This document shows positions 2,395 to 54,422 of a stretch of DNA of 64,000 nucleotides, one piece after another. The position numbers and the translations under genes are program-made. This DNA is from Ostreococcus lucimarinus (Eukaryota): assembly GCA_000092065.1 (NCBI GenBank), contig CP000591.1. One strand, given 5' to 3'. The notes beneath the pieces are model-generated. The model had not been told where the DNA came from. It ran no database searches and worked only from the letters and a program-made list of their open reading frames with translations. The stretch's first letter is position 1. Each line of letters opens with the position of its first letter.

Positions 2395-2463
2395 TGGTCC
2401 GTGTGTTTCATTAATGAGTCTCGCCGTGCTGGTCCGTGTGTTTCATTAATGAGTCTCGCCGCG
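2395..2463. repeat. Tandem duplication of a ~33-bp unit (tggtccgtgtgtttcattaatgagtctcgccg) with a 3-bp spacer, followed by (tgattt)3 at 2631-2648, upstream of the USP gene
   Basis: Two identical copies at 2395-2427 and 2431-2463, read directly from the sequence. Confidence 0.8.
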
Positions 2464-2696
2464 CGCGTCGTCGCGCGGCGTCGCCGACGCGCGCGGCGGA
2501 CGGCGGCGCGTCGAGACGACGGGCGCGATCGCGCGCGTGCGAACGTCGAGCGCGCGACGCGCGCGACGGCGCGGACGAACGATCGGATCGGAAAGGATTC
2601 GAATAGGACGTCGCGGACTTTGATTCGACGTGATTTGATTTGATTTCGAAACGGGACGGCGAGACAGACGACGCGCGCGACGAGGGCGCGGCGAGG

Positions 2697-4412
2697 ATGG
2701 ATTCGGTGACGTCGGTGTTTGGAAATTGGTTCTCGAGCGCGCGGGACGACGGGAGCGAGAGCGACGACGGGAGCGATGCGGCGGCGCGGGAGGCGGGATC
2801 AGAGAAGAGCGACGACGCGCGGGACGAGGACGGGGCGACGAGGGCGGACGAGGACGCGGAGGCGAGGGCGTTGCTGCCGCCGGCGACGACGCTGCATCCG
2901 TACGAGGACGTCAGACGATCGGTGGAGGGATTAGGGACGAGGAGACACGATCACGATTATCCGTCGGGGCTGACGAACGGGGGGAACACGTGCTTCGCGG
3001 CGTCGGCGTTGCAGTGCTTGCGACGGGCGACGCCGCTCACGGCGTGGTTCGACGGCGTGGAAAAGTTTCACGACGTCGCGCGGTGCGCGGAGACGAGGAA
3101 GTTTTGCGTGGTGTGCGAGTATTCGCAACATTTGGAACGCGCGATGGCGTCGAGGGACGCGCACAGCATAGGGAGGTTGACGAAGGACATTAGCAAGGTG
3201 GCGAGACAGTTTAGACGCGGGCGGCAGGAGGATTCGCACGAGTTCATCAACGCGCTGTTGGACGCGATGCACGTGATTTTTTTGAAGGATCTCGGAGGAG
3301 AGAAGAAGTACGATTTGCGCACGCGAGAGACGACGGTCATTTATCACGTCTTCGGTGGGTATACCCTGGGCACGGTGAAGTGCTTGGAGTGCGGGTACGT
3401 GAGCAAGAATTTTCAAAGCACGCTCGACATTCCGCTCGAGGTGACGGGAAAGATTGGCTCCGTCGAGGAGGCGCTTCGAGAAAACTTTTGCACGGAGGAA
3501 GTCCTCAGTGGTTCGAACAAGTACAAGTGCTCGAAGTGCAAGGCGTTGGTACGGGCGAAGAAGGGATCGAAAATCCACGTGTCGCCGAATATTTTAACCA
3601 TTCCTCTAAAACGGTACTCCACTGGACGGTTCAGCAAGATTACAAAGTACATCAAGTATCCGTCCAACTTTTCGCTGGCTGAGTTCATGAGCGATGATGC
3701 CCCGTATGAAGTCACGGCTCCAGAGTATGAGCTTTTCGGTGTATTGGTTCATCAAGACTTTTACGCCAGCGCGCACTCTGGACATTACGTGGCGTACGTA
3801 AAGTTGCGAGACGATTCCTGGGTGCTGTGCAACGATAGTCGCGTGTCGCCGTCTTCCGAAAAGGATGCGATGAAGCAAAAGGCGTACATATTGTTCTACG
3901 AGCGCGTGCACGCGAGAGGTGCACCACCATTGCGCCCGGCGGGATACTTGGACGAGCTCCGAGCGGCGCGCGACGCCGAACGTGCGGCGACGGCGATGAA
4001 GTGCGAAGACGCGGGGGAGGAACAGTTGACTTCTCGGTTCGATTCGATGAGTGTGAGCGCCACCGCGGTAGATACGGTGAGCGCTTCGTCGACGCGTCCT
4101 ACGAGATCTCCCGTCGTTGTCGCCGAGGAGGTCTCCGAGGAACCGTCAGTGCACATGGAAACGGTGAACGTCGAAAACGGTCGAGAGTTGCGCGTATCGG
4201 TCACTTTGCCTGGTTGTCGCAGCGCTCGCGATATCGAAGTCGAGCTCAGCATGGGGCAGCACGATGTGCCGTCATCGCTTATTATCAAGGCCCCAATGTT
4301 GTACGCGACGCCGGTGAAGGTTCACCTGCCGCCGAACGTGGAAGATCCCGTGAAGAGCTCGTTCGTGCGCAAGACGTCAGAGTATCGCGTGCGGTTTCCG
4401 GTTCGCGAGTGA
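2697..4412 (+). CDS. Ubiquitin carboxyl-terminal hydrolase (USP/UBP family deubiquitinase)
   Basis: Cys box GLTNGGNTCFAASALQCL and His box GHYVAYVK...WVLCNDSRVS. The track ORF 2640 starts on TTG; the first in-frame ATG is 2697. Confidence 0.85.
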   Translation: MDSVTSVFGNWFSSARDDGSESDDGSDAAAREAGSEKSDDARDEDGATRADEDAEARALLPPATTLHPYEDVRRSVEGLGTRRHDHDYPSGLTNGGNTCFAASALQCLRRATPLTAWFDGVEKFHDVARCAETRKFCVVCEYSQHLERAMASRDAHSIGRLTKDISKVARQFRRGRQEDSHEFINALLDAMHVIFLKDLGGEKKYDLRTRETTVIYHVFGGYTLGTVKCLECGYVSKNFQSTLDIPLEVTGKIGSVEEALRENFCTEEVLSGSNKYKCSKCKALVRAKKGSKIHVSPNILTIPLKRYSTGRFSKITKYIKYPSNFSLAEFMSDDAPYEVTAPEYELFGVLVHQDFYASAHSGHYVAYVKLRDDSWVLCNDSRVSPSSEKDAMKQKAYILFYERVHARGAPPLRPAGYLDELRAARDAERAATAMKCEDAGEEQLTSRFDSMSVSATAVDTVSASSTRPTRSPVVVAEEVSEEPSVHMETVNVENGRELRVSVTLPGCRSARDIEVELSMGQHDVPSSLIIKAPMLYATPVKVHLPPNVEDPVKSSFVRKTSEYRVRFPVRE

Positions 4413-4506
4413 CGCTGAGTAAAATATTTAGACTGTAACAACAAAGTACTGTATTGCAGTAACATTAAATGCAGCAAAACGTGGATAAAACGTGGATAAG
4501 ATGAAC

Positions 4507-5312
4507 CTACTTTTTCAAGAGCGCCAAAAACGCGTCGACGCACGCCTTGGACGATGCGGGATTTTGACCGGTGACGAGCTTGCCGTCGGTGACGGCGTTG
4601 GGCGTCCAGTCGGCGGCGCCGTTGAATTGCGCGCCCAATTTCTTGAACTCGGTCTCGAGCAAGACGGGCACCTTCTCCGCCAACCCAACCGCGGTTTCCT
4701 CGGCGTCCGTGAAGCACGTCGCGTTCGTCCCCTTCAGAATCGAGTCGCCGTTGGGCTTTTTACACGCCAACAGCGCCACCGGGCCGTGGCAATCCGCCGC
4801 CACCGGCTTATCCGCGGCCAGCGTCTCTTCGATCACGCGCGTCAACGTCGCGTTATTCAAGAAATCGACGCACGTCCCGTGACCACCGGCGAGATAAATC
4901 CCAGCGTAATGCCCGGATTTCACGCCCTTCAAAGCCTTGGCGTTCGCCAACGCCTTCTTCGCGTCCTCGTCGTCGTAAAACTTTTGACAATCCGCGGTAA
5001 AGAAATCCCCCGACTCGCTCGCGGAATCGATCGGCACCTTCCCGCCCTTCACGGACACGACGTCCACCGCGAATCCGGCGTCGAGCAGCGCGTAATACGG
5101 CGTCGCGATCTCCTCGAGCCACGCCCCCGTCGCGTGTCCATCCACTGTTCGATTCGCGCGCGCCGTCAGTCGTCGTCGTCGTCGCGTCGCGTCGCGTCGC
5201 ACGCACTGGAATCCGCGGACGTGCACACGATGGCGATCGTCCGCTCGCGTCGTTTCGATTGCTTCCCGCCCATGGCGCGCGCGACGAGTTTTGCGGGCGT
5301 CGGCATTCGCAT
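4507..5312 (-). CDS. DJ-1/PfpI (Hsp31-like class I glutamine amidotransferase-like) protein; two exons
   Basis: Exon 2 (4507-5144) carries TGAWLEEIATPYY...VKGG...CHGP. Exon 1 (5207-5312) encodes MRMPTPAK...RTIAIVCTSADS. Splicing out 5145-5206 joins them in frame as ...TSADSMDGHATGAWLEE... Confidence 0.65.
5145..5206 (-). other. 62-nt spliceosomal intron in the DJ-1-like gene (GTGCGTG donor, CTGAC branch ~22 nt before a CAG acceptor)
   Basis: The minus-strand sequence across 5206-5145 is gtgcgtgcgacg...ctgacggcgcgcgcgaatcgaacag. Without splicing, the conserved N-terminal and core DJ-1 segments fall in different frames. Confidence 0.6.
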
Positions 5313-5563
5313 CGCGATCGATCGCGAATCGCATCGAATTCCGACGTCGACGAGGTCGCGACGCGCGCGCCCGTCGGTCGCGCGACGTCGCGCGCGGGCG
5401 CGCGGGCGGGCGATTTTTTTAGGTTGAAACCTAACGCAAACTAGGTTTTCCACTCGTAGGATATTTTTCTCGGCGCGTCGTTCGAGGCGACGCGGTGTCG
5501 ACGGGACGCGAAACGACACAACGACCGCCCGTCACCTCGCGACGCGCGAAACGCTCGCGCGCG

Positions 5564-6091
5564 ATGACGCTCGCGGACGCGCGCGACGGGGACGCGGCGT
5601 TCGAAGCGAACAGAGTCGCCGGGAACGCGGCGTACGACCGCGAGGCGTTCGTCGAGGCGACGGCGCGCTACACGGAGTGCGTCGAAGCGCTGGAGAAACG
5701 CCTCGGTTCGGCGGAGGGCGAAGGCACGGCGCGGCGCGCGTGCGCGATTCGCGCGAACCGCGCGGCGTGTTTCGTGAAGCGCGGTAAGCACGCGCTCGCG
5801 ATGGAGGACGCGTCGTGGGTGATCGCGCGACCGCTCGAGGCGGGGGCGGGGATTCTCGCCAAGGCGCTGTACAGGCGCGCGCGCGCGCGCGAAGGCGTCG
5901 GCGACGTCGAGGCGGCGTTGGCCGATTTGCGGGCGGCGGAAAAGATCGATCCACACGATGCGTTGATTCAAAGCGCATTGAATAATTTCACGTCGGTGTT
6001 CCACATCGCCGTCGTTCTCGATAGAGCGTCGCCGGAGGTGCTCGCGAGACAGCCCGCGTGGCGAAATTTCAAGCCAGAGACGAGGCCGTAG
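5564..6091 (+). CDS. Small TPR-repeat protein
   Basis: Three TPR-like helical repeats (GNAAYDREAFVEATARY..., ANRAACFVKRGKHALAMEDASWVIA, AKALYRRARAREGVGDVEAALADLRAAEKIDP). The first ATG in the ORF 5495 frame is at 5564. Confidence 0.45.
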   Translation: MTLADARDGDAAFEANRVAGNAAYDREAFVEATARYTECVEALEKRLGSAEGEGTARRACAIRANRAACFVKRGKHALAMEDASWVIARPLEAGAGILAKALYRRARAREGVGDVEAALADLRAAEKIDPHDALIQSALNNFTSVFHIAVVLDRASPEVLARQPAWRNFKPETRP

Positions 6092-8619: not shown

Positions 8620-8900
8620 CGCGACGGCCGACCGACCGACCGACCGACCGACCGACTGGTGTACAAACAGTGACACGCGAAATAACCATCGCCGCGACGC
8701 CACTGATGGGAATCTTCACGTATCGAAGAGCCGACCGACCGACTGGTGTACAAACAGTGACACGCGAAATACCCATCGCCGCGACGCCACTGATGGGAAT
8801 CTTCACGTATCGAAGAGCCGACCGACCGACTGGTGTACAAACAGTGACACGCGAAATAACCATCGCCGCGACGCCACTGATGGGAATCTTCACGTAATGA
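8620..8900. repeat. (ccga)n microsatellite followed by three near-identical 102-bp tandem repeats, in the kinesin/AsnRS divergent promoter
   Basis: The unit ccgaccgaccgactggtgtacaaacagtgacacgcgaaata[a/c]ccatcgccgcgacgccactgatgggaatcttcacgtatcgaagag repeats at ~8625, ~8727 and ~8829 with one or two SNPs. It is AT-richer than the surrounding coding DNA. Confidence 0.85.
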
Positions 8901-8945
8901 AGAGCCGCCGCCGGCACACCCCGACGCCGCGCGCGCGCGAGCGCC

Positions 8946-18908: not shown

Positions 18909-19247
18909 GAGCGCGCCTCCGTACGCGCGTCCGCCGTCCGCGGCGCGCTCGACGCCCGGCGCGTCCCAGTCCGCCGTCGCCGTCGCGGGCGCGTCCCTCC
19001 GAACACCATCGTGGCCCGTCTGCGATCGCGCGAAACCGCGGCGCGCGTCAGTCGGCGAACGCGCTCGCGGTTCGCGCGATCGGCGCGTTTTCGCGCGTTT
19101 TCGCGCGCGTCCTCGCGCGCGCGCACCCCGAGCAGCAGCGTCTCGCGCTCGCTGCGGTCGCTCGACGACATCGCGCGACGCGCGCGACACAGAGTGACGC
19201 CGCGCGCGCGGCGTCGAGATCCGCTCGGCGCGGCGACGACGGCGTCG

Positions 19248-19491
19248 ATGACGTCCGCGTCGATGGTATCGACGCTCGCGGCGCGCGCGAGAGCGAACGT
19301 CGCGCTCGCGGTCGTCGCGATCGCGATCGCACTCGCGTTGTTCCCGCTGCTCGCGCCGCTCGCGCTGGGCGGTTTCGTCGTCGCGCGCGCGGTGCGCAGG
19401 GACGCGCGCGAGGAAGAGGACGTTTCGGTGAAGCCCGTCGCGGGGACGGGCGGGGACGTCGCGGTGCGAGAGAGGGCGCGGGTGGAGGTTG

Positions 19492-19551
<60 letters not shown>

Positions 19552-22133
19552 CGGTGGCGCTCACGGGCTCGGCGGCGATGCTGGCGAAGATGCGGAAGAG
19601 CAGCGCGTTGACTGGAGAAAAACGCGCGACCGCGGCGCAGGGTGCGAGCACGAGCGCGAAGGATGGTGTGGATGAGACGGCGACGAACGCGAAAGCGACC
19701 CGAACGTTTATATTGCACGGCGGCGAAGCGGCGTCGCAAATCGCGAAGGATTTGGCCGCGCAGGCGGAGAAAGAGCACGGAATTGCGTTGAATGTGATGA
19801 CAATGGATGATTTCAGAGACGTAGAGTTCGATAAAGAACCCTGCGCGGTGGTTTTCGTGGTCGAGACGGTAGAGAACGCGCAGCCGGCGGAAGCTGCGGG
19901 ATCTTGCGTGCGCTTCTTCAATCGGAAACGTAAGGAAGGGACGAATCAGGCTATGCTGGCGGGGAAGATGTCATACGCGGTTTTAGGACTCGGTGATACA
20001 AACTTGTTACTCGATCGCCAGACGACGACGGCGAAAGATTGTAACCAGGCTGCGCAGACGTTGGATTCGGCGCTCGCCGCTCTCGGCGGCGCTCGAATCG
20101 TCCCCCGCGGCGAGGCAAACGACGCCGTGGGTTTGGACGAAGACGTTGTACCGTGGGCCAAGTTGCTTTTCCCAAAATTGTCTGAAGTTCACAAAGGGAT
20201 TGAGGCGAAAAAAAACGCAAAGCTATGCTTCTTGTACGGCTCGCAGACCGGTAACGCGACGGAAATTTGCAAAAATCTCGCCGCCGAGGCGAGCGAGAAG
20301 GGGTACCCCGTGGAGGTGTGCGCGATGAATGAGGTCGAGCCAGAAGATGTCATCAAACCTGGCGCTGTGATTACGTTCGTCGTATCCAGCACCGGCGACG
20401 GTGACGCTCCGGATAACTGCGACACATTCTTCACTCGCCTCAAGCGCAAGGCAAAGAAGGAAAAAGGCGAGGGCGCCATCGGCGTCCAGTACGCCGTCCT
20501 AGGACTGGGTGATCAAAACTACAGCGCGTTCATGGCTGTGCCGCGTCAGTTCTCGCAAACGATGGAGAACTTGGGCGCGAAGTGTTTCGCTAAGCGCGGT
20601 GAATGCGACGACACACTTGGTTTGTACGAACAAGTTGACGCATGGACGAGCACGTTTTGGTCTCATCTCGAAGTCGCTCGAGGAAACTCACACAAGTTGC
20701 GCGAGGGTGAGACAATCGTGGAAGACGCTAATGCCGCCACTGAAGCTCCAAAAGGCGATTCGAAGCCACCGCAAGCGGCTGCGCCGGCGAAGAAAGTCGA
20801 AGGCGTGCCACCACTACCAATCTGCCGATCTGAAGTGCAGTGGCTGCCGAAAACGACAGAAGTGGTTGCTAATCGCGTCGCGCCCGGTCCAGATTCCGAA
20901 GGTGCATACACCGTCTCCTCGCCGTACATGGCGACTATTCACAAGCGTGAGGTACTCACAAACTTGAAATCCGATCGGCGAGTGTTGCACATGGAGTTTG
21001 ATCTCGGATCAAGTGGGATCTCTTACAAGCCGGGAGATTCCATTGGCATCGTACCGCAGAACGACGCCGAGCTGGTTCGAGCCATCGTCGATCGGCTGGG
21101 TCTCGATCAAGCCGCCATTTTCACGCTGAATTGGAAGAAAGGTGACACGAATGAACACGCGACTCATCCGTTGCCGCATATTCACACCCCGTGCACGGTA
21201 AAGAGTGTGTTCACGAATTATATCGACATCACGGGATGTCCGCGTAAGTCGCTCCTTCGCGTTCTCGCCGAACACTGCGGCAACGCGGAGGAAAAAGACG
21301 CCCTCTTGCACCTTTCATCGCGTGGTGGTCGAGCAGAATACGAAACACAGATTCGCGCGCAGTCACCGACGCTATTGACGCTCTTGAACAATTATCCGAG
21401 TTGTTGTCCTCCGTTAGCCGAGCTTTTAGATGCCCTCTCTCCGCTCGCGCCGAGACTGTATTCGATCACATGCGCGCCCGAGGTGGCACCAACAACGCCG
21501 TCGGTTGCCTTCAGTGTCGTGCGGTTCCAGGTACCCAGCGGTGAACATCGCCTCGGCGTCGCCACGAACTGGCTCGACGAGATATCGGTCGACGACAAGT
21601 GCGAGCACAAAGTCCCGGTGTACATCAAGCCAAGCTTGAAGTTCGGCCTGCCCGAAGACTCGAGCGCGCCGCTAGTGATGATTGGTCCGGGTACCGGCGT
21701 CGCACCATTCCGCGGTTTCCTCCAGTCCAGACGCGCTAAAGCACAAAAAGGCGGTCGATTATCTGAAGCTATGTTGTTCTTCGGCTGTCGCAAGGCAGAT
21801 GAGGACTTCCTGTACGAAGCCGACTGGAAGAGTTTCACCGCCGATGGCTCGCTGACAAAGCTCGTCTGCGCCTTTAGCCGCGAGACCGCAGAAAAGGTAT
21901 ACGTGCAGCACAAAATTGAAGAGCACGCCACCGAAGTCGCGCGCTTAATCTCTGAGGGCGCTTACGTCATGGTATGCGGCGACGGCGCGCACATGGCCAA
22001 GGATGTCCACGCCGCCCTCGTCCGCGTCGTCGCTCAAGCCGGCGTCTGCGGCGTCTCTGACGTCAAAGCCGCCGAGGCTCTCCTCGCCGACTTCACTAAA
22101 TCCGGTCGTTACGTCCGTGATATTTGGAGCTAA
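19248..22133 (+). CDS. NADPH-dependent diflavin oxidoreductase (CPR/MTRR/NDOR1 family) with an N-terminal TM anchor, poly-Thr tract and two tandem flavodoxin-like domains
   Basis: Hydrophobic N-terminus VALAVVAIAIALALFPLLAPLALGGFVVA, then (T)16. The first Fld-like domain (FILHGGEAAS...YAVLGLGDTN) is degenerate. The second is canonical (FLYGSQTGNATE...YAVLGLGDQNY). The FAD/NADPH domain carries RLYSITCAP, GPGTGVAPFRGFLQSR and a C-terminal RYVRDIWS. Confidence 0.8.
19501..19550. repeat. (acg)16 trinucleotide repeat encoding poly-Thr in the reductase N-terminal region
   Basis: Read directly from the sequence. Confidence 0.9.
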
Positions 22134-22356
22134 CGCACGCGCGTTCGTATTGTTTAGATTTTAATTTCTCATTTCATTTCATTTCATTCCACTCCACTCT
22201 CGTTCCGTTTCACCAAACTCCTGCGGGCGAGTTGGGTGTTACGCGTACACGCGCGCCCCTCAGACCCGCGCGCGCTTCGCCGCGGGCTAAAATGCGCCGT
22301 CGTGATCGAGGAAACGACCCTCCGATGGTGTCGTCGACGTTCGTCGTCGTCCTCGT
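20620..22356. repeat. Segmental duplication, copy A (1737 bp): 3' half of the reductase gene, the intergenic spacer and the first ~60 codons of the beta-glucosidase gene
   Basis: Near-identical to 27065-28801. The few differences include F>C in VAPFRGF and N>H on an antisense ORF. The six-frame ORFs are duplicated residue for residue (for example 20509..20967 vs 26993..27412, and 21009..21311 vs 27454..27756). Confidence 0.9.
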
Positions 22357-22381
22357 AGCAAGCAAGTTTAGAGCTTGCTAA

Positions 22382-22498
22382 CTTTTGACTGTAGAGGAAC
22401 ACGCCAAGTTCGTCGATGGACTTACGAAGCTGGGCAAAGGCAACTGGCGTGGGATCATTCAACACTTCGTTCAGTCTCGAACGCCGACGCAGGTCTAA
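22382..22498 (+). pseudogene. SHAQKYF-class MYB/SANT domain fragment (pseudogene remnant)
   Basis: Translates to [38 protein letters not shown] then a TAA stop. The next codons read SHA..., the start of the expected SHAQKYF motif. There is no start codon, and it sits immediately after the duplication junction. Confidence 0.5.
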
Positions 22499-22522
22499 TC
22501 ACACGCGATAGATCGGTCGAAC

Positions 22523-23386
22523 TTAAGTCTGGGGCATTTCAATCTCTCGGTCCAAAGCTTCCGCGCCCAACGCCGAATATCTACATCGTGAGCGTCGTGC
22601 ACGTGTTGAAACTGCCCACACTGACACCATGGTAGTCGCCAACAAGCCCAGCGTTACGTAGACAAGTGTCAAACAACTGAAGTAACTGTTTTGAGGCGAA
22701 CGCTCTGAGGCGAAACATAGAGCGCCGTGCAAATCTTCATCAGGTTCGAGCGTGATGTTACGTTGAAGAACGAATACGTATCGCTTGAAGGGCATTGATG
22801 CGCCACCTGAAGCTGTGATATGAAATTCCACCGTCTCAATCGAAGCAGATTTCTCAGGTGCGCACCAAATTAAGTTGTGGACGGTGGCTTTGCGCGTCGT
22901 GTACATGCGTCGACCAGAGCAGGCGGTGGCCGGCCTGTTCACGTTCCCATTCAAAAGCACGCCTTGATCGTGAAAGGATCCCGCAGAAGCGGTGATCAGC
23001 ATCATCGAATTCGGGTCTTCGTGCGATGCCGCGAGACCCAAGCGGCAGCCATCGCAATATTCTCGTTTACCGGGAGGGAACGTCCACGCAGCGGGGATCT
23101 GCCTCGTGGGTTCATTTTCGTCGTACTGCGCATCCTCAACATCAGTGTGGTTTGCCCAACTCAGCAGCACACTCGTGTTTGTGGCATCTATCGGTGCTCC
23201 GTGACCAGCAGCACGACGTGTGGGGTGTACGCGAGCCATCCCACCTTCGCAACGCGCGTCGAGGCGCAGTTCGGTCGGATACGACTCCACCAAAACCAGT
23301 CGCCAATCGAAGATTGCCACGGCGACGGCGGCGCATAGGCGCGCCGGATGCCGCAGACACATGTCGCCGCGTCGACATCGGTTCAT
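22523..23386 (-). CDS. Putative secreted/membrane protein with a reeler/DOMON-like domain and a C-terminal TM helix
   Basis: Signal-like N-terminus. Segments MMLITASAGSFHDQGVLLNG and TVHNLIWCAPEKSASIETVEFHITAS resemble the reeler fold. C-terminal TM YFSCLTLVYVTLGLLATTMVSVWAV. It lies in the low-GC island. Confidence 0.35.
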   Translation of the reverse strand: MNRCRRGDMCLRHPARLCAAVAVAIFDWRLVLVESYPTELRLDARCEGGMARVHPTRRAAGHGAPIDATNTSVLLSWANHTDVEDAQYDENEPTRQIPAAWTFPPGKREYCDGCRLGLAASHEDPNSMMLITASAGSFHDQGVLLNGNVNRPATACSGRRMYTTRKATVHNLIWCAPEKSASIETVEFHITASGGASMPFKRYVFVLQRNITLEPDEDLHGALCFASERSPQNSYFSCLTLVYVTLGLLATTMVSVWAVSTRARRSRCRYSALGAEALDREIEMPQT

Positions 23387-23456
23387 AGGGTTGTAGCGCC
23401 CGTCCTGGTCCTAGCCCGTCATGTAGCGTTGACGCGCGTGTTCTGCCCCACCCAAG

Positions 23457-23484
23457 TCGTCTGTCGTCTGTCGTCTGTCGTCTG
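23457..23484. repeat. (gtcgtct)4 heptamer microsatellite
   Basis: Read directly from the sequence. Confidence 0.85.
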
Positions 23485-24042
23485 TTGTCGGGGGGTGTCC
23501 GTTCGCGACGGACAACATACCAGCAAAGCTATGACTCAAAGGCTTTGTTCGGTCACGCGCGCGCACGCTCGCACGACTGAGCGCCGTCGACTCCTGATTC
23601 CACACGTTCAGCGTCGTCGGAATCATACGGGAAACCCGGCAGAGAAGCGCGGGGAAGTACGCATCGCGTTCGCGCGACACTGTCCGACGTAAAACGCGTA
23701 TAATGAGACATTTTCCAATCAAGTTTTGTAAGAAGGTTGAAATATACTTAGTAAATAATTATGCGAGGCCCAATAGTTCTTTTAAATTATCTAATACGAC
23801 GTGCGACCGACCAAATCCGACTAATGCACGCGGCAAGTATGGAGGAGATATTTACATGGAGGATTATCCACTAGATATTTTTTGGATATTTACTCCGCAT
23901 CGAACGAGTTACGACTCAACAATAGAGGGACCGTTGCGCGTGGCCGGCACGTGCCGGCCACGCGCCGCCACGTGCGCGAGGTCCCTACGCCCGTCTCTCC
24001 GCAAGCATCACACGACGACGCGAGGAATTCTACGCGAAGAAG

Positions 24043-25713
24043 ATGCAAATCGAACGAAGGAAACGAAATGCGCGAGCGCTCTGCGCACTTGTTGTTTCTG
24101 CGACGCTTGCGAACACCGCGAGCGCGCAATTAACATACATCGCAGGATACGAGCCACGCTCCAACGTCGTCCAACATTCCCAAGTCGACTTGGACATAAG
24201 GGATATCATTAGTTCTTTCCCGAAGTGGAAGGGTGGAGACAGCATTTACAATGGCGGACTTCTGAACGACTGCACCACAGTGGCAGGCGCGTGCAACTGG
24301 AATGGGACCAGTAGTCTATACCCAACATTGTGGGACGGCACTTGTACGCACACCTGCCCTGCTGCTGACTCGGCAAATCCGGGCCAAAAGTGCACTTTAA
24401 GCGCGGCGGATGCATGTTTGTCCACTTACGGTATTTATAAGTATGGTAAGGGATCGTTCAAGGGGAACAACAAGGATGACGCGGCGTCGATGCGGACGCT
24501 TCGCGGGTTTGCAACGAAACTTGGTGATAAGGGTGCCTCAGCGCGTGTTGCCGCGAAAAACAACCCGTTTATCAACAAAATGAATAAATACTGGGCGAAA
24601 CAGGGGCTGAATGAATTGACTTGGGGTCAAGATATCATCGAAGCTGCTTTCAAAGGTACTTGTGTCAAGAACGGTAACTCGTGTGTAAAATCAGGGGGAG
24701 TAAATCTTCTCGATTTTGGCACGGTCGGAAACGACTTCAGGGTGGAAGTGATAAAGAAAGGTATTATTTACTTGAACATCTTTCCTTACGTCATTTGGGA
24801 ATTTCAAGACGCTATCAACGACTGCCATGGTGGTGACTTGGGCGCGAACGATGAAATTCCCGGAGGAGGTTCAGTACACGCTTGGGATGAAGCCGTAGCC
24901 TTTTACACTGGTTCGCTCGAGGGCATCTTAAAAGGCGGTAACAATGGCCTCGCCTCATGCGATGACGGTAATTGTGAGTTGCAATTTCAACTGTCAGATT
25001 ATCGCTGCACGAACTTCGGTACCTGCACCGCCGATGCTGATGGTGACCCGTGGAGTGGATACTCAAAAAATAATGAAGAGATCTTCAAACTCTTTCAACA
25101 AGGTGAAGGTGAAATTACTGAAGCCGCTGCAAGCTCCAATACTGCGGCGACGAAATGTGACTTGCCGGATCGCACCCACGAAAAGGCTGTTACGAAAATG
25201 CTTGTTCCTTTCGTGCAAGGATGCATGAGGTACTTGTGGAAGACAAAAGATTCGCAGAAAGCTAAGGAAGCAGGCGAGCTCTTTGCGTTTGCATCCGCTG
25301 CACTTCCTTTTATCGATGCGGTAGACCCTGTCGCCGCTACTAAGTTGTTCACACGTGCGTGGAAACTAGATTTCACTACTTACACGTATGAAGAAACTAA
25401 GCAGGGCATCGAAGGCACCCTTTCGAGACTCGGTGCTGGTGAGGGCATTGGTACAATATCTTGCGCTGACATTGGCGACCTCGTTGACAGCAGTGATCAA
25501 CTGCTCGCTGCTGGCTGCACGGATCCCTCATCTCCCTCATCTTCCAATAATGACACCACTCTCGGGCTGGGTATTGGGATTCCACTGGGTGCCATCGCAA
25601 TCACCGCGTTGGTATTTGTCGTGCTTTTGTGGCGAAAGAGCTCAGCAAACAGCAAGCGAGTCGAAGAGTTAACCATGCAGCTGAGAGGTCCTGGTAAGGA
25701 CTTCTATCCGTGA
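24043..25713 (+). CDS. Cysteine-rich secreted type I membrane protein, unknown family
   Basis: Signal peptide MQIERRKRNARALCALVVSATLANTASAQ. A ~500-aa Cys-rich ectodomain, then a single C-terminal TM (IGIPLGAIAITALVFVVLLW) and a short cytoplasmic tail. Coding GC is ~45-50%, far below the genomic ~65%. Confidence 0.5.
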   Translation: MQIERRKRNARALCALVVSATLANTASAQLTYIAGYEPRSNVVQHSQVDLDIRDIISSFPKWKGGDSIYNGGLLNDCTTVAGACNWNGTSSLYPTLWDGTCTHTCPAADSANPGQKCTLSAADACLSTYGIYKYGKGSFKGNNKDDAASMRTLRGFATKLGDKGASARVAAKNNPFINKMNKYWAKQGLNELTWGQDIIEAAFKGTCVKNGNSCVKSGGVNLLDFGTVGNDFRVEVIKKGIIYLNIFPYVIWEFQDAINDCHGGDLGANDEIPGGGSVHAWDEAVAFYTGSLEGILKGGNNGLASCDDGNCELQFQLSDYRCTNFGTCTADADGDPWSGYSKNNEEIFKLFQQGEGEITEAAASSNTAATKCDLPDRTHEKAVTKMLVPFVQGCMRYLWKTKDSQKAKEAGELFAFASAALPFIDAVDPVAATKLFTRAWKLDFTTYTYEETKQGIEGTLSRLGAGEGIGTISCADIGDLVDSSDQLLAAGCTDPSSPSSSNNDTTLGLGIGIPLGAIAITALVFVVLLWRKSSANSKRVEELTMQLRGPGKDFYP

Positions 25714-26899
25714 GAGGTCCTGGTAAGGACTTGAGTCTTCTCTATGAGGTGCTGCTCCGATAGGCTACTACATTGAGCCCAGCACATTGAGCCCAAGAGC
25801 GAAGAGCTCGTTTAATTTAATGCACATACTACTTGAAATACCGTCTCACCATTTGCCGCCGTTTGCCGCCGCCGCGTTGATCGAGCATGACTTGGACGTG
25901 TTACCGAACGAAACGTAACGAGCCAGGTGGCGTTCGTAGGGTATTGAAATGCAGAAATTTGTATCCGTGAGTCGCAGCTAACTTTGAGCGCGACACGACG
26001 CGAGGTGCGCGCGAAGGCAAAAAGTTACATATTTTACCGTTTTTTTTCGAAATCACGTGTAGTGCATTATGGTACCACCTAAAACATGGTGGCTAATACA
26101 CACAGCACCACACTATAGATAAACACGACATATAATATGTACAGAACTACATTGAGCGGCTTGCCAAGCGTGGCCCACAGAAAGTTCTGGTTCGAGTCGC
26201 GCGTTTGTTGCGCGCAGCAGCTTTCCTTGCACTGCGAGCTCGAGTTTTCGCACGCTGGCTCAGTACTCTCTGTTCGTAAGGCGCGCGTGAAGGCTCTAAT
26301 CGAACGGAACTCCAGACGCGCGGCGTGTGGCATCGTTCGTCGCGCGCCGTAGGGCCACACACGTGCACTCCTCGCAGCAGAGACTACGCGTCTCCGCTCA
26401 CGTTCAGAGAACGAAGGGCGTGCGACGCAGTCTCGTCGGCACTGGAGCATTCTGAGGGCGCGCGCGAGGGTGACACTTGCTTACGCTGATGTTCTCGGCG
26501 GAGGTCCCGCGTACAGAGCGTCGCCGCGACGGCAAGTGACATGCAGCCACTCGAAGTCGTGCGACGAGCGGCGACGACGCGGTTGTAACGCACACGCGCC
26601 GGCCCCGGGCACGAGACGAAACCGAAAAGACGGTTCGTAGAAAAACGCGCGTGTTTGGCACGCGCCCGGTGAAACGTGAGCGAAAAACCGAAAAGTATAC
26701 CTATAGGGTGTAGCGCTTCGATGTATGATGCAAATGGAATTACGGTACTTTATACGAATGCCCCTAACGACGAGACGATACCGATTGGGTAAAGTTCTGG
26801 CGACCCGCCGCTACGCCCAACACAAATTGGTCCCACAGATGCATTCCCCAAAGTGAGGGACTGGAATCAAAGGCGGGCAAGAAAACCGCCGCATGGCTC

Positions 26900-27064
26900 G
26901 CACCCCGTGCACTGCCAGCGTCGCCCGAGGCCACGCTCCGCGTGAAAGTCGGCGCATCGCGTGCGAGCGCTGCCGCATAACTCACACCCCGTGTGCCGCC
27001 ATTATCGTCGCCTGAGGCCACGCCCCGCGAGAAAGTCGGCGGATCGCGTGCGAGTGCCGTCGCG
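26900..27064. repeat. Two ~85-bp imperfect tandem repeats directly abutting the start of duplication copy B
   Basis: caccccgtg[c/t]...cgtcgcc[c/t]gaggccacgc[t/c]ccgcg[t/a]gaaagtcggcg[c/g]atcgcgtgcgag[c/t]gc[t/c]g[c/t]cgc appears twice. Confidence 0.7.
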
Positions 27065-28801
27065 GTTTGTACGAACAAGTTGACGCATGGACGAGCACGT
27101 TTTGGTCTCATCTCGAAGTCGCTCGAGGAAACTCACACAAGTTGCGCGAGGGTGAGACAATTGTGGAAGACGCTAATGCCGCCACTGAAGCTCCAAAAGG
27201 CGATTCGAAGCCACCGCAAGCGGCTGCGCCGGCGAAGAAAGTCGAAGGCGTGCCACCACTACCAATCTGCCGATCTGAAGTGCAGTGGCTGCCGAAAACG
27301 ACAGAAGTGGTTGCTAATCGCGTCGCGCCCGGTCCAGATTCCGAAGGTGCATACACCGTCTCCTCGCCGTACATGGCGACTATTCACAAGCGTGAGGTAC
27401 TCACAAACTTGAAATCCGATCGGCGAGTGTTGCACATGGAGTTTGATCTCGGATCAAGTGGGATCTCTTACAAGCCGGGAGATTCCATTGGCATCGTACC
27501 GCAGAACGACGCCGAGCTGGTTCGAGCCATCGTCGATCGGCTGGGTCTCGATCAAGCCGCCATTTTCACGCTGAATTGGAAGAAAGGTGACACGAATGAA
27601 CACGCGACTCATCCGTTGCCGCATATTCACACCCCGTGCACGGTAAAGAGTGTGTTCACGAATTATATCGACATCACGGGATGTCCGCGTAAGTCGCTCC
27701 TTCGCGTTCTCGCCGAACACTGCGGCAACGCGGAGGAAAAAGACGCCCTCTTGCACCTTTCATCGCGTGGTGGTCGAGCAGAATACGAAACACAGATTCG
27801 CGCGCAGTCACCGACGCTATTGACGCTCTTGAACAATTATCCGAGTTGTTGTCCTCCGTTAGCCGAGCTTTTAGATGCCCTCTCTCCGCTCGCGCCGAGA
27901 CTGTATTCGATCACATGCGCGCCCGAGGTGGCACCAACAACGCCGTCGGTTGCCTTCAGTGTCGTGCGGTTCCAGGTACCCAGCGGTGAACATCGCCTCG
28001 GCGTCGCCACGAACTGGCTCGACGAGATATCGGTCGACGACAAGTGCGAGCACAAAGTCCCGGTGTACATCAAGCCAAGCTTGAAGTTCGGCCTGCCCGA
28101 AGACTCGAGCGCGCCGCTAGTGATGATTGGTCCGGGTACCGGCGTCGCACCATGCCGCGGTTTCCTCCAGTCCAGACGCGCTAAAGCACAAAAAGGCGGT
28201 CGATTATCTGAAGCTATGTTGTTCTTCGGCTGTCGCAAGGCAGATGAGGACTTCCTGTACGAAGCCGACTGGAAGAGTTTCACCGCCGATGGCTCGCTGA
28301 CAAAGCTCGTCTGCGCCTTTAGCCGCGAGACCGCAGAAAAGGTATACGTGCAGCACAAAATTGAAGAGCACGCCACCGAAGTCGCGCGCTTAATCTCTGA
28401 GGGCGCTTACGTCATGGTATGCGGCGACGGCGCGCACATGGCCAAGGATGTCCACGCCGCCCTCGTCCGCGTCGTCGCTCAAGCCGGCGTCTGCGGCGTC
28501 TCTGACGTCAAAGCCGCCGAGGCTCTCCTCGCCGACTTCACTAAATCCGGTCGTTACGTCCGTGATATTTGGAGCTAACGCACGCGCGTTCGTATTGTTT
28601 AGATTTTAATTTCTCATTTCATTTCATTTCATTCCACTCCACTCTCGTTCCGTTTCACCAAACTCCTGCGGGCGAGTTGGGTGTTACGCGTACACGCGCG
28701 CCCCTCAGACCCGCGCGCGCTTCGCCGCGGGCTAAAATGCGCCGTCGTGATCGAGGAAACGACCCTCCGATGGTGTCGTCGACGTTCGTCGTCGTCCTCG
28801 T
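27065..28801. repeat. Segmental duplication, copy B (1737 bp)
   Basis: See copy A. This copy is contiguous with the full-length beta-glucosidase gene. Confidence 0.9.
27067..28578 (+). pseudogene. 5'-truncated duplicate of the diflavin reductase (FAD/NADPH domains only, no flavodoxin domains or promoter)
   Basis: 503-aa ORF identical to the reductase C-terminus except F>C in GVAPCRGF. The track start is an alternative codon, and the fragment lacks the N-terminal 530 aa. Confidence 0.6.
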
Positions 28802-30515
28802 CGGCGTCGTCGCCCGCGCGAGCGCGCAGACCCACGCGCACCAACACCATCGAGGCGAAACGAGCCACGGCGACGGAAACTTTGTCACCTTCCCACCGTC
28901 GTTCGCGTTCGGCGTCGGAACGTCGGCGTGGCAGATCGAAGGAAACGGTGGTGATCGCCCGCGATCGGTGTGGGACGCGTTCGTGAGCGAACTAGGAGAG
29001 GAGAAGAGAGTGGAGGCGGAGCGCGGGATCGGCTTTCACGAGCGATACGCGGCGGATGCGCAAATGATGGCGGATGCGGGAGTGAAACATTTCAAAATGT
29101 CCCTGAGCTGGCCGAGGTTGATGCGCGCCGACGGGAGCGCGATCGATGAAGGGTTCGAGTATTATCAGAACGTTTTCGGGGCGCTACGCGAGCGAGGCGT
29201 GGAACCGCACGTGACGCTGTTTCACTGGGACACGCCGATGTGGTGCTGCGCCAACGAAACGATCGCGAGCGGGCGTGGGAGCGTGTGCGAAGGAGCTTGG
29301 GTGAAGGATGAAATCTTGAAAGATTTTGAGAAGTACGCGGATGCGGTGTTTAGTAGACTCGGGAAGGGGATAAAATATTGGACCACAATTAGTGAGCCAA
29401 AAACCGTCGCAGAGATGGGCTACGGTGCGGGCCTTCACGCGCCTGGGCGTCGGAGCGTGGAAGAACAACTTAAAGTGGGGCATAATATGTTGCGTGCACA
29501 CGCTTTGGCGGTGGCGCTCTATAGGGAGAAATATTCCCAGTTTGGAGGGAAACTTTCAATCAATTTGAATAGCGCTTGGGTCGAGCCGGCGTCGGATTCG
29601 CCGGACGACGTGCGTGCGGCGGCAAACGCGATGGATGAAGAGCTTGGATGGTTTGCCGATCCTATTTATAAAGGTGACTATCCGGCGAGCATGCGGGCGA
29701 GATTGGGGAGCTTTCTTCCGGAGTTCACCGAGGAGGAGCGCGTGCTCGTGAAAGGGAGCGTCGATTACTTTGCGCTCAATCACTACACGTCCTACTTCGC
29801 CAAGCATGTGACCGACGCGCAAGCTTCGTCGCAGCTTGGTTTGAGCGGCAGACCTCAGCCGTGGGAGATCACACTAGAGTCAGAAAAGAGCAAGAAACCA
29901 ATCGGCAAGGAGGCGCAAAGCGACTGGTTGCACATCGTGCCGTGGGGATTAGAAAAGGTTTTGCTGCACATCAAGGACAGATACGACGATCCAGCGATCA
30001 TGATCTCGGAGAATGGCGTCGATATCGCCGAGAGGGGCGATATCGCGGAAACTCTGGACGACACAACGAGAGTCAAGTTTATCGATGCCTATCTCGGAGC
30101 CGCTCGCGAGGCGATGCGTAAAGGCGCAAACGTTGTGGGGTACTTTTATTGGTCGATGTTCGACAACGTCGAGTGGGTGGATGGGCGATCGAAACGATTT
30201 GGTTTGGTTTATGTCGATTACGACGGCAAGTACGGCGAAAAGATGAAGCGCTATCCAAAGAAATCTCTCGAGCACTTCTCCTCCTACATGCGAGGAGAGC
30301 ACGCCGAAGAACCAACCCTCGGTGCCGCGCGCGTGCGACACTCGCTCGAAGACTCTTTCGTTCAAGTCGATCCGAGGCGTCAGGGCGAAATCTTCGCATT
30401 GCAAGGCATGGCGTTGACCATCGCCTGCGTCTACGCCGCGGCAGCGGCGTTCGCCGGCGGCGTCAAAATCGTCGAGCAAGACGTCGAGCAAGACGAACGC
30501 TCGTCCCTCGTCTGA
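28737..30515 (+). CDS. Glycoside hydrolase family 1 beta-glucosidase, secreted or membrane-anchored
   Basis: Signal peptide MRRRDRGNDPPMVSSTFVVVLVGVVARASA. GH1 motifs FPPSFAFGVGTSAWQIEG and TISEP (acid/base region), with the nucleophile in MISENGVD. Hydrophobic C-terminal segment ALQGMALTIACVYAAAAAFAGG. Confidence 0.8.
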   Translation: MRRRDRGNDPPMVSSTFVVVLVGVVARASAQTHAHQHHRGETSHGDGNFVTFPPSFAFGVGTSAWQIEGNGGDRPRSVWDAFVSELGEEKRVEAERGIGFHERYAADAQMMADAGVKHFKMSLSWPRLMRADGSAIDEGFEYYQNVFGALRERGVEPHVTLFHWDTPMWCCANETIASGRGSVCEGAWVKDEILKDFEKYADAVFSRLGKGIKYWTTISEPKTVAEMGYGAGLHAPGRRSVEEQLKVGHNMLRAHALAVALYREKYSQFGGKLSINLNSAWVEPASDSPDDVRAAANAMDEELGWFADPIYKGDYPASMRARLGSFLPEFTEEERVLVKGSVDYFALNHYTSYFAKHVTDAQASSQLGLSGRPQPWEITLESEKSKKPIGKEAQSDWLHIVPWGLEKVLLHIKDRYDDPAIMISENGVDIAERGDIAETLDDTTRVKFIDAYLGAAREAMRKGANVVGYFYWSMFDNVEWVDGRSKRFGLVYVDYDGKYGEKMKRYPKKSLEHFSSYMRGEHAEEPTLGAARVRHSLEDSFVQVDPRRQGEIFALQGMALTIACVYAAAAAFAGGVKIVEQDVEQDERSSLV

Positions 30516-31445
30516 CGCCATCGCCCACGATCGACACATAGCAAACAAATTCGCTTAAACGAGTAAACAGTTGAGACTTAGCGCGCGTTGAAACAATCAC
30601 ATGCACGGTATTGAACCATGGCGTGTACACGAGTCTCCGAAGACTCGCGTGCTTCGGGCGCTCCGCGCCATCGCGTCCACGTCGACGCGATGTGACCTTC
30701 GCCACGATCTCGCCCTCCTCGAGCGAGGTTTCGCGAACGCGCTTGCTCGCGACGAGCTCCGGCGCCGCGCAAAGCTTCGCGAGACGACTCGCAGCCGCGC
30801 GCGCACATATCGCTCGGTCGCCCGCGTCTTGACCGGGCGCGAGCGCGATTTGCGCGAGCCGCGCGAAATTTCGGTCCCCCGCGACGCGCGCGTTCTCCGC
30901 CACGCGTCGGTGGCGTCGCAGAAACTTTTTCACGTGCGTCTTCTTCGTCATGCCTCCATGTGACGTTTCGTCTCGGCGTCTCGACCTTGTGACGCGGCCT
31001 CGGACGCGCGCGAGGGCACCTCGGCACTCTGCGACGCGCGCGCGACTCGGCGCGGTCGTCGCGGACGCGTCGCGAAAGAAGAAAAAAAGTCGAGCATCGA
31101 ACCGCGCGTCGTTCGAGCGCCGCGCCGCGGCGCGCGCGACGCGCGGACGCGCGAGATGGGGCGCGTTGAAGCGGCGTTTCTCGGCGCCGGATCCCGCCTC
31201 GGGCGGCGCCTCGGGCGTCGCGCGCGCGACTAGCAAGACACGAAAACGAAGGAAAGAAAGCGCGTACGAATTCTTTTGAATCGATGTGCGCGGCGATGGA
31301 CGCGCGCGCGCGCGTTCGCGCGCCGACTCGCGCGATCGTCGTCTCCGAGACGGGCCGCGCAGACTGACCCTCGCGCAGAGGCCGACGCCAGAAGACACGC
31401 GAAACAAGGCGGCGATAGCGTCCAAACTATCGCTCGCCTGCGGCA

Positions 31446-31478
31446 GGTTAACCCAGGGTTGACCCAAGGTTGACCCAG
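31446..31478. repeat. Three tandem copies of ggtt(a/g)accca, ~130 bp upstream of the DUF829 gene ATG
   Basis: ggttaacccagggttgacccaaggttgaccca, read directly from the sequence. Confidence 0.7.
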
Positions 31479-31607
31479 CCGCAGTACTACACCCTCGCGG
31501 CGCGAGGACGCGAAGGAGGGACAGCTCGCTCGCGCGATCTCGTCGAACGACCTAGAGCCCTCGAAAGTAGCGATTGTAGTACGTCGCGTCACTCGCAGCC
31601 TCGCGCG

Positions 31608-45389: not shown

Positions 45390-45708
45390 GCTCATCTCTC
45401 GCGCGCATCGTCGCCATCAAATCACAAAAATTTCTACTAGTTTTACACGTCATCGTTATTGCTAATCACCATCGTACACAGTTCACTTTGTCTCCTTTGT
45501 CTCCTTTGTCTCCTTCGTCGACGTCGGCGCCAATCGATCCTCTCGAAAGTTCGGCGCCGGCGTCGTCCTCGGCAGATGTCTGTAATCGTACAGCAAACTA
45601 TCCGCCACGTGTTCCTCCTCCTCATCGTTCTTCCGTTCGCTGTACGTGCGCCACCACGTCTTCAAACTCTCGTCGTACCGCGCCGCTTTCGTCGCCGTCT
45701 CAACCACC

Positions 45709-45715
45709 GTCGTCT

Positions 45716-45756
<41 letters not shown>
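45709..45756. repeat. (gtc)n trinucleotide repeat (~14 units) ending 6 bp before the methyltransferase ATG; an antisense ORF reads it as poly-Thr
   Basis: Read directly from the sequence. Confidence 0.9.
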
Positions 45757-45762
45757 CCGTAG

Positions 45763-54389: not shown

Positions 54390-54422
<33 letters not shown>

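What the first reader, a model, noticed from the sequence alone, without database searches (positions are those of the whole stretch)
20620..28801. 1.74-kb near-identical direct duplication splits a reductase/beta-glucosidase gene pair around a ~4.7-kb low-GC insertion
20620-22356 and 27065-28801 are ~99.7% identical. Each copy spans the reductase 3' half, the intergenic spacer and the first ~60 codons of the GH1 beta-glucosidase. Copy A is attached to the full reductase and copy B to the full glucosidase. The result is a truncated reductase fragment (27067-28578) and a truncated glucosidase 5' stub, with foreign-looking DNA between them. The layout looks like an insertion into the reductase/glucosidase spacer with a very long target duplication, or a repair or recombination event. 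The identity implies it is recent, unless it is an assembly artefact.
Basis: seen in the sequence. Interest (0 to 1): 0.75.

Follow-up and report, generated by a model that had tools for sequence, protein, structure and literature searches.

The report
Polymorphic duplication-insertion carrying iron-uptake genes
In the tiny marine alga Ostreococcus lucimarinus, a 4.7-kb pair of iron-uptake-type genes from another locus sits between two near-identical 1.7-kb copies of its insertion site. The structure is real and recent, only part of the wild population carries it, and in some samples it is amplified in tandem.

Summary
Window 20619-22356 equals 27064-28801 (1,738 bp, 2 mismatches), flanking a 4,707-bp, lower-GC insert. 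The window is Ostreococcus lucimarinus CCE9901, a eukaryote.

It is not an assembly artefact. Both novel junctions recur exactly in 16-18 independent contigs from at least 17 samples, including four chromosome-scale contigs.

Ten contigs encode an identical neighbouring protein. Six have the empty site (reductase directly followed by GH1) and four have the filled site. Other Ostreococcus lineages are empty.

All eight repeat copies in the four environmental filled haplotypes compared in full are identical, while empty alleles are diverse. So the event happened once, recently, on one allele.

The insert is a sub-segment of a conserved locus elsewhere. It carries a Myb relic, a reeler-like membrane protein (ORF287) and a Fea1 iron-assimilation homolog. 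Junctions share at most 1 nt, and there are no transposon features.

A second 962-bp ectopic insertion lies 1.8 kb downstream. It is present in all 9 filled contigs that reach it and absent from all 6 empty ones.

Best reading: one non-homologous repair or replication accident. Afterwards the repeat-flanked unit was amplified (contig L052, at least 2.4 units) and the Fea1 interior was exchanged among divergent alleles.

The parts
19011..22133 (+). Full-length diflavin (CPR / methionine-synthase-reductase-like) reductase ORF. The probable ATG lies further in, at 19248 or later.
   Evidence: Pfam Flavodoxin_1, FAD_binding_1 and NAD_binding_1. It clusters with the CCE9901 protein XP_001420328.1.
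20619..22356 (+). Repeat copy A (R_A): reductase 3' half from codon 537, the 158-bp spacer, and the first 65 nt of GH1.
   Evidence: It has a private synonymous C at 20717.
22292..22381 (+). GH1 5' stub: 22 GH1 codons reading into the insert, giving a 29-aa peptide and then a stop.
22357..27063 (.). Insert X (4,707 bp, GC 0.535): a sub-segment of a conserved cassette locus found elsewhere.
22390..22497 (+). Relic exon of a SHAQKYF-type Myb domain. It has no continuation and is also a relic at the native locus.
22523..23386 (-). ORF287 (XP_001420500.1): a single-pass membrane protein with a beta-sandwich ectodomain. Distant homologs are fused to cytochrome b561.
23936..23965 (.). Perfect 30-nt palindrome centred on CACGTG, in the divergent ORF287/Fea1 promoter, 78 bp upstream of the Fea1 ATG.
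24043..25713 (+). Fea1-family protein (556 aa). The tract 24107-24857 is hypervariable among filled haplotypes.
   Evidence: Pfam PF07692. 100% match to a CCE9901 predicted protein. Variation.
25714..27063 (.). Conserved non-coding tail of the cassette, ending in two 87-bp repeat units (26888-27063).
   Evidence: 98-100% identical to the native locus.
27064..28801 (+). Repeat copy B (R_B). It contains the truncated reductase fragment 27067-28578 (FAD+NAD domains only) and the native upstream region plus start of the intact GH1.
   Evidence: It has a private Phe->Cys change at 28154.
28737..30515 (+). Intact GH1 beta-glucosidase.
30617..31580 (.). Second insertion Y (962 bp plus a 2-nt AC duplication, GC 0.675) in the GH1-DUF829 spacer. 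It is found only on filled haplotypes.

Best explanation
This is a single, recent, non-homologous rearrangement in an O. lucimarinus lineage. It was a DNA-repair or replication-restart accident, not the work of a mobile element.

A 1,738-bp stretch was duplicated in tandem. It runs from reductase codon 537 through the spacer to GH1 codon 22. A 4,707-bp piece of another locus was joined in between the two copies. That piece is the low-GC cassette of Myb relic, ORF287 and Fea1, plus a tail that ends inside an 87-bp repeat array.

Because the target was duplicated, both host genes stayed intact. The by-products are a 29-aa GH1 stub and an FMN-less reductase fragment.

The same haplotype carries a second ectopic insertion (962 bp, 2-bp duplication) 1.8 kb downstream. 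Either both arose in one complex event or they are tightly linked.

Shown here:
- the structure itself;
- the ancestral empty site;
- the single recent origin;
- the origin of the insert from another locus;
- junctions with at most 1-2 nt of shared sequence;
- segregation of the variant in wild populations.

Inferred, not shown: the molecular route. I favour replication template switching (FoSTeS/MMBIR-like: copy to 22356, switch to the donor, switch back to 20619) at about 45%. End-joining of breaks at different positions on sister chromatids, or of staggered breaks, with capture of a free fragment, I put at about 35%.

Since the event, the 1.74-kb direct repeats have served as recombination substrates. 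They produced (R+X)n tandem arrays or circles. Separately, the Fea1/ORF287 interior has been swapped with divergent alleles or paralogs.
For: - Structure and limits.
- Independent support for both junctions: Logan contig L001 equals X plus exactly 30 bp of R at each end, which are k=31 branch points. Environmental contigs L008, L015, L020, L031-33. Chromosome-scale contigs of 550-620 kb, L030/L040-44/L048-51. Exact junction 40-mers occur in 16-18 loci.
- Ancestral empty site: other lineages L003/L004 and six haplotypes 97.5-99.4% identical to the window.
- Single recent origin: all 8 R copies of the 4 environmental filled haplotypes compared in full are identical. Each CCE9901 copy has one private SNP. 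Empty alleles show 42 variable columns. Filled haplotypes cluster in the flank at 0.3-0.7 substitutions per kb next to R.
- Donor-type locus: L009/10/11/13/14/34-37 share one flank (u447, alpha/beta-hydrolase, LSD1, Myb). Their homology to X stops at X's ends, and L011 continues with a third 87-bp unit exactly where R starts.
- No TIRs, tRNA or Rfam hits, and no transposase.
- Second insertion Y is fully associated: 9 of 9 filled, 0 of 6 empty. Its alternative flank matches a CCE9901 gene on another chromosome.
- Amplified form: L052 has 3 X|R and 2 R|X junctions, a period of 6,460 bp and non-identical units. L031 has the same topology.
Against: - The molecular route cannot be read from the product. 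Junction microhomology is only 0-2 nt, which is low for classical MMBIR.
- Whether the donor copy survives in CCE9901 is unresolved. The L001 unitig runs 30 bp past X's right end without branching. That argues against a second copy with an identical tail in that read set, and so favours relocation or later loss over simple copying.
- No CCE9901 member was seen in the native-flank protein clusters, but only 40 members per cluster were read.
- Most comparison sequences are metagenome contigs. Some interior mosaics, L031 and L055 could be assembler chimeras.
Confidence: 0.8

Rival explanations
1. Campbell-type integration. A circular molecule carrying R plus X recombined by a single homologous crossover with the chromosomal R. 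That automatically yields R-X-R.
For: Ostreococcus is proficient in homologous recombination (my own knowledge, not checked here). Contigs with circular or tandem topology of exactly the R+X unit exist: L031 and L052.
Against: The circle would first have to be built by joining R to X at both ends by non-homologous joining. So this only moves the accident one step back. Circles and arrays are equally expected as products of R-X-R. The linked second insertion Y is not explained.
Confidence: 0.1
2. An ancient duplication whose two copies are kept near-identical by gene conversion (concerted evolution).
For: The interior of X shows old allelic divergence (dS about 0.1). Exchange between copies clearly operates at this locus.
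Against: R is identical not only between copies but among all filled haplotypes, while single-copy empty alleles of the same segment are diverse. Flank diversity next to R is very low among filled haplotypes. Other Ostreococcus lineages and six conspecific haplotypes are empty.
Confidence: 0.04
3. Insertion of a mobile genetic element (a transposon or a virus-derived element) that generates a long target-site duplication.
For: The insert has low GC and a discrete 4.7-kb size, and related cassettes are multi-copy or tandem in some relatives (L007, L049).
Against: There are no terminal inverted or long terminal repeats, no transposase, integrase or RT domain, and no tRNA. X's ends are arbitrary points inside a larger conserved locus: a relic intron and the middle of an 87-bp array. 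Only one insertion site was found. No viral relatives of ORF287 or Fea1 were found.
Confidence: 0.03
4. Assembly artefact (a false duplication or a chimeric join) in the CCE9901 reference.
For: Near-identical repeats longer than a Sanger read are classic sites of misassembly.
Against: The two copies differ at two sites. Both junctions and the full A-R-X and X-R-B paths recur in independent short-read and chromosome-scale assemblies from at least 17 samples.
Confidence: 0.01

Closest known systems
Tandem duplication with a templated (ectopic) insertion at the breakpoint: FoSTeS/MMBIR-type complex rearrangements and the 'templated insertion' class of structural variants (from my own knowledge of the human and cancer genomics literature)
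   Same: A host segment is duplicated head-to-tail with a stretch copied from another locus in between. Several ectopic pieces are inserted close together on one haplotype. No transposon machinery is involved.
   Different: Junction microhomology here is only 0-2 nt. The insert is long (4.7 kb) and carries two intact genes. Retention of the donor was not verified. This is a germline-equivalent variant segregating in a wild unicellular alga.
Double-strand-break repair by end joining with capture of filler DNA (NUMT/NUPT insertions, T-DNA filler, genomic-fragment capture in Chlamydomonas insertional mutants; from my own knowledge)
   Same: Blunt or 1-2-nt junctions. The captured fragment has arbitrary ends. 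The second insertion Y has a 2-bp target duplication.
   Different: A 1,738-bp target duplication is far longer than the few bases produced by filling in staggered ends. It needs sister-chromatid or replication involvement.
Campbell-type single-crossover integration, and amplifiable units flanked by direct repeats (for example yeast CUP1 arrays and bacterial gene amplification)
   Same: The R-X-R topology. Its expected products, (R+X)n arrays or R+X circles, are seen in L052 and L031.
   Different: No engineered or plasmid vector is involved. The origin of the first R-X joints must be non-homologous.
Ot-Fea1 / Chlamydomonas FEA1 / diatom ISIP2a iron-assimilation proteins (PMC4855317)
   Same: The insert's 556-aa protein hits Pfam Fea1 (PF07692). 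Like Ot-Fea1, its sequence ends in a hydrophobic stretch consistent with a C-terminal membrane anchor, and its N-terminus looks like a signal peptide (read from the sequence; no predictor was run).
   Different: It has one Fea1 region instead of the duplicated domains of Ot-Fea1 (about 47-50% identity to the ~950-aa double-domain proteins). Its N-terminal half is hypervariable. Its role in iron uptake is untested.
Reeler/DOMON-cytochrome b561 ferric reductases (FRRS1/CYBDOM type)

Membership tests
Tandem duplication with ectopic (filler/templated) insertion | Two same-orientation copies of a host segment that is single-copy in the ancestral allele | tested here: met
   empty alleles.
Tandem duplication with ectopic (filler/templated) insertion | The DNA between the copies is homologous to a different genomic locus, and its ends are arbitrary points of that locus | tested here: met
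   The native locus has the u447/hydrolase/LSD1 flank, and the right breakpoint lies inside an 87-bp array.
MMBIR/FoSTeS specifically | Microhomology (typically 2 nt or more) at the template-switch junctions, and a retained donor copy | tested here: inconclusive
   Junctions share 1 nt, 1 nt and 2 nt. Donor retention in CCE9901 was not determinable. The L001 unitig argues against an identical second tail.
Transposable element insertion | Terminal inverted or long terminal repeats, a transposase/integrase/RT gene, a short fixed-length target-site duplication, and multiple insertion sites with the same ends | tested here: not met
   Only one site was found among about 50 related loci.
Campbell-type integration of a circle | Existence of a circular R+X intermediate that predates the chromosomal structure | tested here: inconclusive
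   L031 and L052 have circular or tandem topology, but neither the direction of causality nor circularity itself can be read from contigs.
Fea1 family (PF07692) | Score above the Pfam gathering threshold | tested here: met
   42.1 bits against a cut-off of 25, E = 7.6e-11.
Diflavin reductase (CPR/MTRR type) | FMN (flavodoxin), FAD-binding and NAD(P)H-binding domains in that order | tested here: met
   for 19011-22133. Copy B (27067-28578) lacks the flavodoxin domain, so it is a fragment, not a member.
Reeler/DOMON-cytochrome b561 ferric reductase | A cytochrome b561 transmembrane domain | tested here: not met
   ORF287 has no Pfam hit and a single predicted C-terminal helix. Only distant homologs carry b561.

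The most novel reading that the evidence does not exclude
The repeat-flanked R+X unit may be a naturally amplifiable and excisable gene-dosage module for iron acquisition in a picoeukaryote. Recombination between the 1.74-kb repeats would expand it into arrays, or release 6.4-kb circles, in some populations. Its two surface proteins (Fea1 N-terminal half and ORF287) would be diversified by cassette exchange with paralogous loci, under selection from iron supply or from viruses that use them as receptors.
Probability: 0.2. Interest if true: 0.7.

Novelty: new member of a known kind. Interest (0 to 1): 0.5.

Why it matters
This is a cleanly resolved case of how a compact eukaryotic genome gains genes at a new site without a transposon and without damaging its neighbours. 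The ancestral allele, the donor-type locus and the exact junctions are all in hand.

The cargo is a relative of Ot-Fea1, described in O. tauri as a strongly iron-induced, iron-loaded candidate for iron uptake (PMC4855317). The variant is a common presence/absence and copy-number polymorphism in wild O. lucimarinus.

That makes two things directly testable in existing ocean metagenomes. One is whether iron availability selects on the dosage of this cassette. The other is what drives the extreme allelic diversity of its surface domain.

Tried and rejected
- Bacterial reading of the window: dropped once the Fea1 ORF matched O. lucimarinus at 100%.
- Myb fragment as evidence that the insertion truncated a live gene: rejected. 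The same relic, without upstream exons, is present at the native locus.
- 'Defined ends shared by many contexts means a mobile element': rejected. L009/10/11/13/14 all share one flank, so they are one locus, and the homology ends only because X is a sub-segment of it.
- L007 as a circular element: its ends overlap at only 95%, so it is read as adjacent diverged units.
- L012/L016-18/L021 as native-locus cassettes: L012 and L018 turned out to be 99-100% identical to the interior of a filled-site haplotype.
- Viral origin: no relatives of ORF287 or Fea1 in viral contigs.
- Does CCE9901 still hold the native locus? Not settled. The hydrolase homology search returned no hit above 72% identity. Cluster look-ups showed no CCE9901 member, but only 40 members per cluster were read. 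The native flank is not in the window.
- Pfam on the ORFs of the second insertion and of the insert tail: nothing.
- The afdb50 fold library was unavailable.
- Literature searches found no description of this locus.
Full report
**Observation.** A direct comparison at the offset of 6,445 bp shows that 20619-22356 and 27064-28801 are collinear without gaps. They are 1,738 bp long with two mismatches, at copy-A positions 20717 and 21709. A self-comparison of the whole window finds no other long repeat.

Pfam assigns 19011-22133 to a diflavin reductase (flavodoxin, FAD-binding and NAD-binding domains). It assigns 27067-28578 to the FAD and NAD part only, 28569-30515 to GH1, and 24043-25713 to Fea1.

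The probable GH1 start is at 22292/28737. Each copy therefore contains the reductase from ORF codon 537, the 158-bp spacer and 65 nt of GH1. Copy A ends in a 29-aa GH1 stub.

The insert X (22357-27063) has GC 0.535 against 0.602 for the window. Its GC3 is 0.52-0.57, against 0.68-0.75 in neighbouring genes.

**Organism.** The Fea1 ORF is 100% identical to a predicted protein of Ostreococcus lucimarinus CCE9901, on a 593,542-bp contig. ORF287 is XP_001420500.1. The window is therefore a chromosome of a picoeukaryotic green alga.

**Not an artefact.** A Logan assembly of an unrelated run (SRR23274481) yields a contig equal to window 22327-27093 at 100%. That is X plus exactly 30 bp of R on each side. 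This is what a k=31 graph produces when R has two predecessors and two successors.

Metagenome contigs cross the junctions. L020 runs from the reductase through all of R_A into X at 99.7%. L008, L015, L032 and L033 cross R|X.

Four chromosome-scale contigs (550,261, 553,713, 607,933 and 619,552 bp) and several of 15-80 kb show the full architecture. Exact 40-mers of R|X and X|R occur in 18 and 16 fetched loci respectively. The 115-aa ORF that straddles X|R is indexed in 269 blocks of the collection.

**Ancestral state and age.** In other Ostreococcus lineages (L003, L004), the reductase 3' end is directly followed by GH1, DUF829 and GH77.

More decisively, ten 21-kb loci encode an identical UAA-transporter protein just upstream of the reductase, and they fall into two classes. 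Six are empty (L038, L039, L043, L045, L046, L047). Four are filled (L040, L041, L042, L044). Both classes are 97.5-99.4% identical to the window in the flanks.

All eight R copies of the four environmental filled haplotypes are identical. CCE9901 has one private change in each copy. The change in the full-length gene is synonymous. The change in the truncated fragment is Phe->Cys. The single-copy R of the empty haplotypes varies at 42 alignment columns.

Filled haplotypes form a tight group in the flank, at 0.3-0.7 substitutions per kb next to R. The empties L043, L045 and L046 are their nearest relatives. The event therefore happened once, on one allele, much more recently than the coalescence of alleles at this locus. 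The empty alleles are ancestral, not pop-out derivatives.

With a mutation rate of about 5e-10 per site per generation (recalled from the Mamiellophyceae mutation-accumulation literature, not checked here), 0-2 differences per 1.74-kb pair put the event at roughly 1e6 generations or fewer.

**Origin of the insert.** Nine environmental contigs (L009, L010, L011, L013, L014, L034-L037) carry an X-like block next to one and the same flank. That flank holds a 447-aa protein, an alpha/beta-hydrolase, an LSD1-type demethylase and a Myb protein.

Homology to X ends at X's own ends. On the left it ends within about 10 nt of 22357, in what looks like the 3' end of an intron before a relic Myb exon. The exon is a relic there too. 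On the right it ends exactly at 27063/27064, where L011 continues with a third 87-bp unit.

Identity to X varies along its length:

| X segment | Identity to native locus |
|---|---|
| Myb relic and ORF287 (22357-23357) | 94-98.5% |
| Promoter and Fea1 (23557-25557) | 57-70% |
| Last ~1.3 kb of non-coding tail | 98-100% |

X is thus a recent copy or relocation of a sub-segment of that locus, with a swappable middle. Each junction shares at most 1 nt.

X has no terminal repeats, no tRNA or Rfam hits, and no transposase-like domains. No viral relatives were found.

**Cargo.** Fea1 relatives include Ot-Fea1. In O. tauri that protein is strongly iron-induced and iron-loaded, and it is proposed to mediate non-reductive iron uptake (PMC4855317).

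The two genes are divergently oriented around a promoter that contains a perfect 30-nt palindrome centred on CACGTG.

**A second linked insertion.** All six empty haplotypes and the other lineages lack window 30617-31580. This is a 962-bp GC-rich segment with a 2-nt AC duplication, lying in the otherwise ~126-bp GH1-DUF829 spacer. Every filled contig that reaches this point has it: 9 of 9, against 0 of 6 empties.

In L055 the segment's right end continues into a different flank. That flank's PCIF1 gene clusters with CCE9901 XP_001421800.1, which lies on a 468,366-bp contig. So this piece also has a home on another chromosome. Alternatively, the L055 scaffold is a chimera formed through that repeat, which implies the same thing.

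**Mechanism.** The product is A-R-X-R-B with arbitrary donor ends and near-blunt joints, plus a second ectopic piece nearby. That is the signature of a non-homologous repair or replication accident.

I favour serial template switching during replication restart. It explains the target duplication, the copying, and two insertions in cis by one process.

The alternative is end-joining between breaks at different positions on sister chromatids, with capture of free fragments. It fits the minimal microhomology and the hint that CCE9901 lacks a second identical tail.

A Campbell-type integration of an R+X circle gives the same product. It still requires the two non-homologous joints to form first.

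**After the event.** L052 reads X-tail-R-X-R-X-R, with a period of 6,460 bp. It contains three X|R and two R|X junctions and no junction to unique flanks, and its units differ by one SNP and one indel. L031, from Tara, has the same X-tail-R-X-head topology. The repeat-flanked unit is therefore amplified in tandem, or exists as a multimeric circle, in some samples. For the short-read contig L031, an assembler mis-path cannot be excluded.

Among filled haplotypes, R and most of X are invariant, but 24107-24857 carries 10-34 substitutions per 250 bp. In this tract dS is about 0.09-0.10 and dN/dS about 0.75-0.96, against dS of about 0.01 in the rest of the gene.

Other filled haplotypes (L049, L056, and contigs L012/L018) carry a different interior. 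It has a 504-aa Fea1, which is tandemly duplicated in L049. Variation that old inside a structure that young must have been imported by recombination or gene conversion from other cassette copies. The alternative is that it reflects metagenome chimeras.

**Verdict.** The structure is a real, recent, single-origin duplication-insertion that segregates in wild O. lucimarinus. It belongs to a known class of rearrangement. It is unusually well documented, and it carries ecologically relevant cargo together with evidence of later amplification and allele exchange.

Noticed in passing
window 30617-31580: A second insertion (962 bp plus a 2-nt AC duplication, GC 0.675) lies between GH1 and DUF829. 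It is present on all filled haplotypes that reach it and absent from all six empty ones. In L055 its right end joins a PCIF1-gene flank that corresponds to another CCE9901 chromosome (468,366-bp contig).
   Followed up: partly
L052 (whole locus) and L031: These contigs consist only of repeated R+X units. L052 holds about 2.4 units with a period of 6,460 bp and non-identical units, and its record name ends in '_2x_c'. L031 reads X-tail-R-X-head. They represent a tandem array or a circular multimer of the unit.
   Followed up: partly
window 24107-24857 (Fea1 codons ~20-275): This tract is hypervariable among otherwise near-identical filled haplotypes. dS is about 0.1, dN/dS is about 0.75-0.96, and the amino-acid differences fall in patchy blocks. 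Fea1 is frameshifted in L040 and L044, and L044 also lacks 25186-25545.
   Followed up: partly
L049 (window-orientation positions 1-5900), L056, L012, L018: The filled site carries an alternative cassette interior with a 504-aa Fea1. In L049 this gene is duplicated in tandem with a period of 3,040 bp.
   Followed up: partly
window 23936-23965: A perfect 30-nt palindrome, GCGCGTGGCCGGCACGTGCCGGCCACGCGC (CACGTG core, flanked by CACGCG), lies 78 bp upstream of the Fea1 ATG in the divergent promoter. It is conserved in L005. It resembles iron-responsive elements reported for Chlamydomonas (from memory, not checked).
   Followed up: no
L007 1-336 and 4172-4214: In a more distant relative, the cassette tail is followed by ~200 bp of native flank and then the next Myb-relic/ORF287/Fea1 unit. 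The contig ends overlap at 95%. So the cassette is tandemly repeated at or near its native locus in that genome.
   Followed up: partly
window 19488-19586: A long (ACG)n run encodes a poly-Thr stretch in the N-terminal extension of the reductase ORF. Similar ACG-rich stretches occur at 45704-45759 and 54355-54428.
   Followed up: no
window 8644-8913 and 47000-47181: Short tandem repeats: units of about 87 bp at 96-97% identity, and a 91-bp unit repeated twice at 100%. They are unrelated to the finding.
   Followed up: no
place without DNA (ENA ERZ23491652, contig of 104,430,999 bp): The truncated-reductase ORF and the 115-aa junction ORF are listed on a 104-Mb record, surrounded by bacterial-type genes (GST, enoyl-CoA hydratase, luciferase-like). 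This is probably a concatenated or chimeric record.
   Followed up: no
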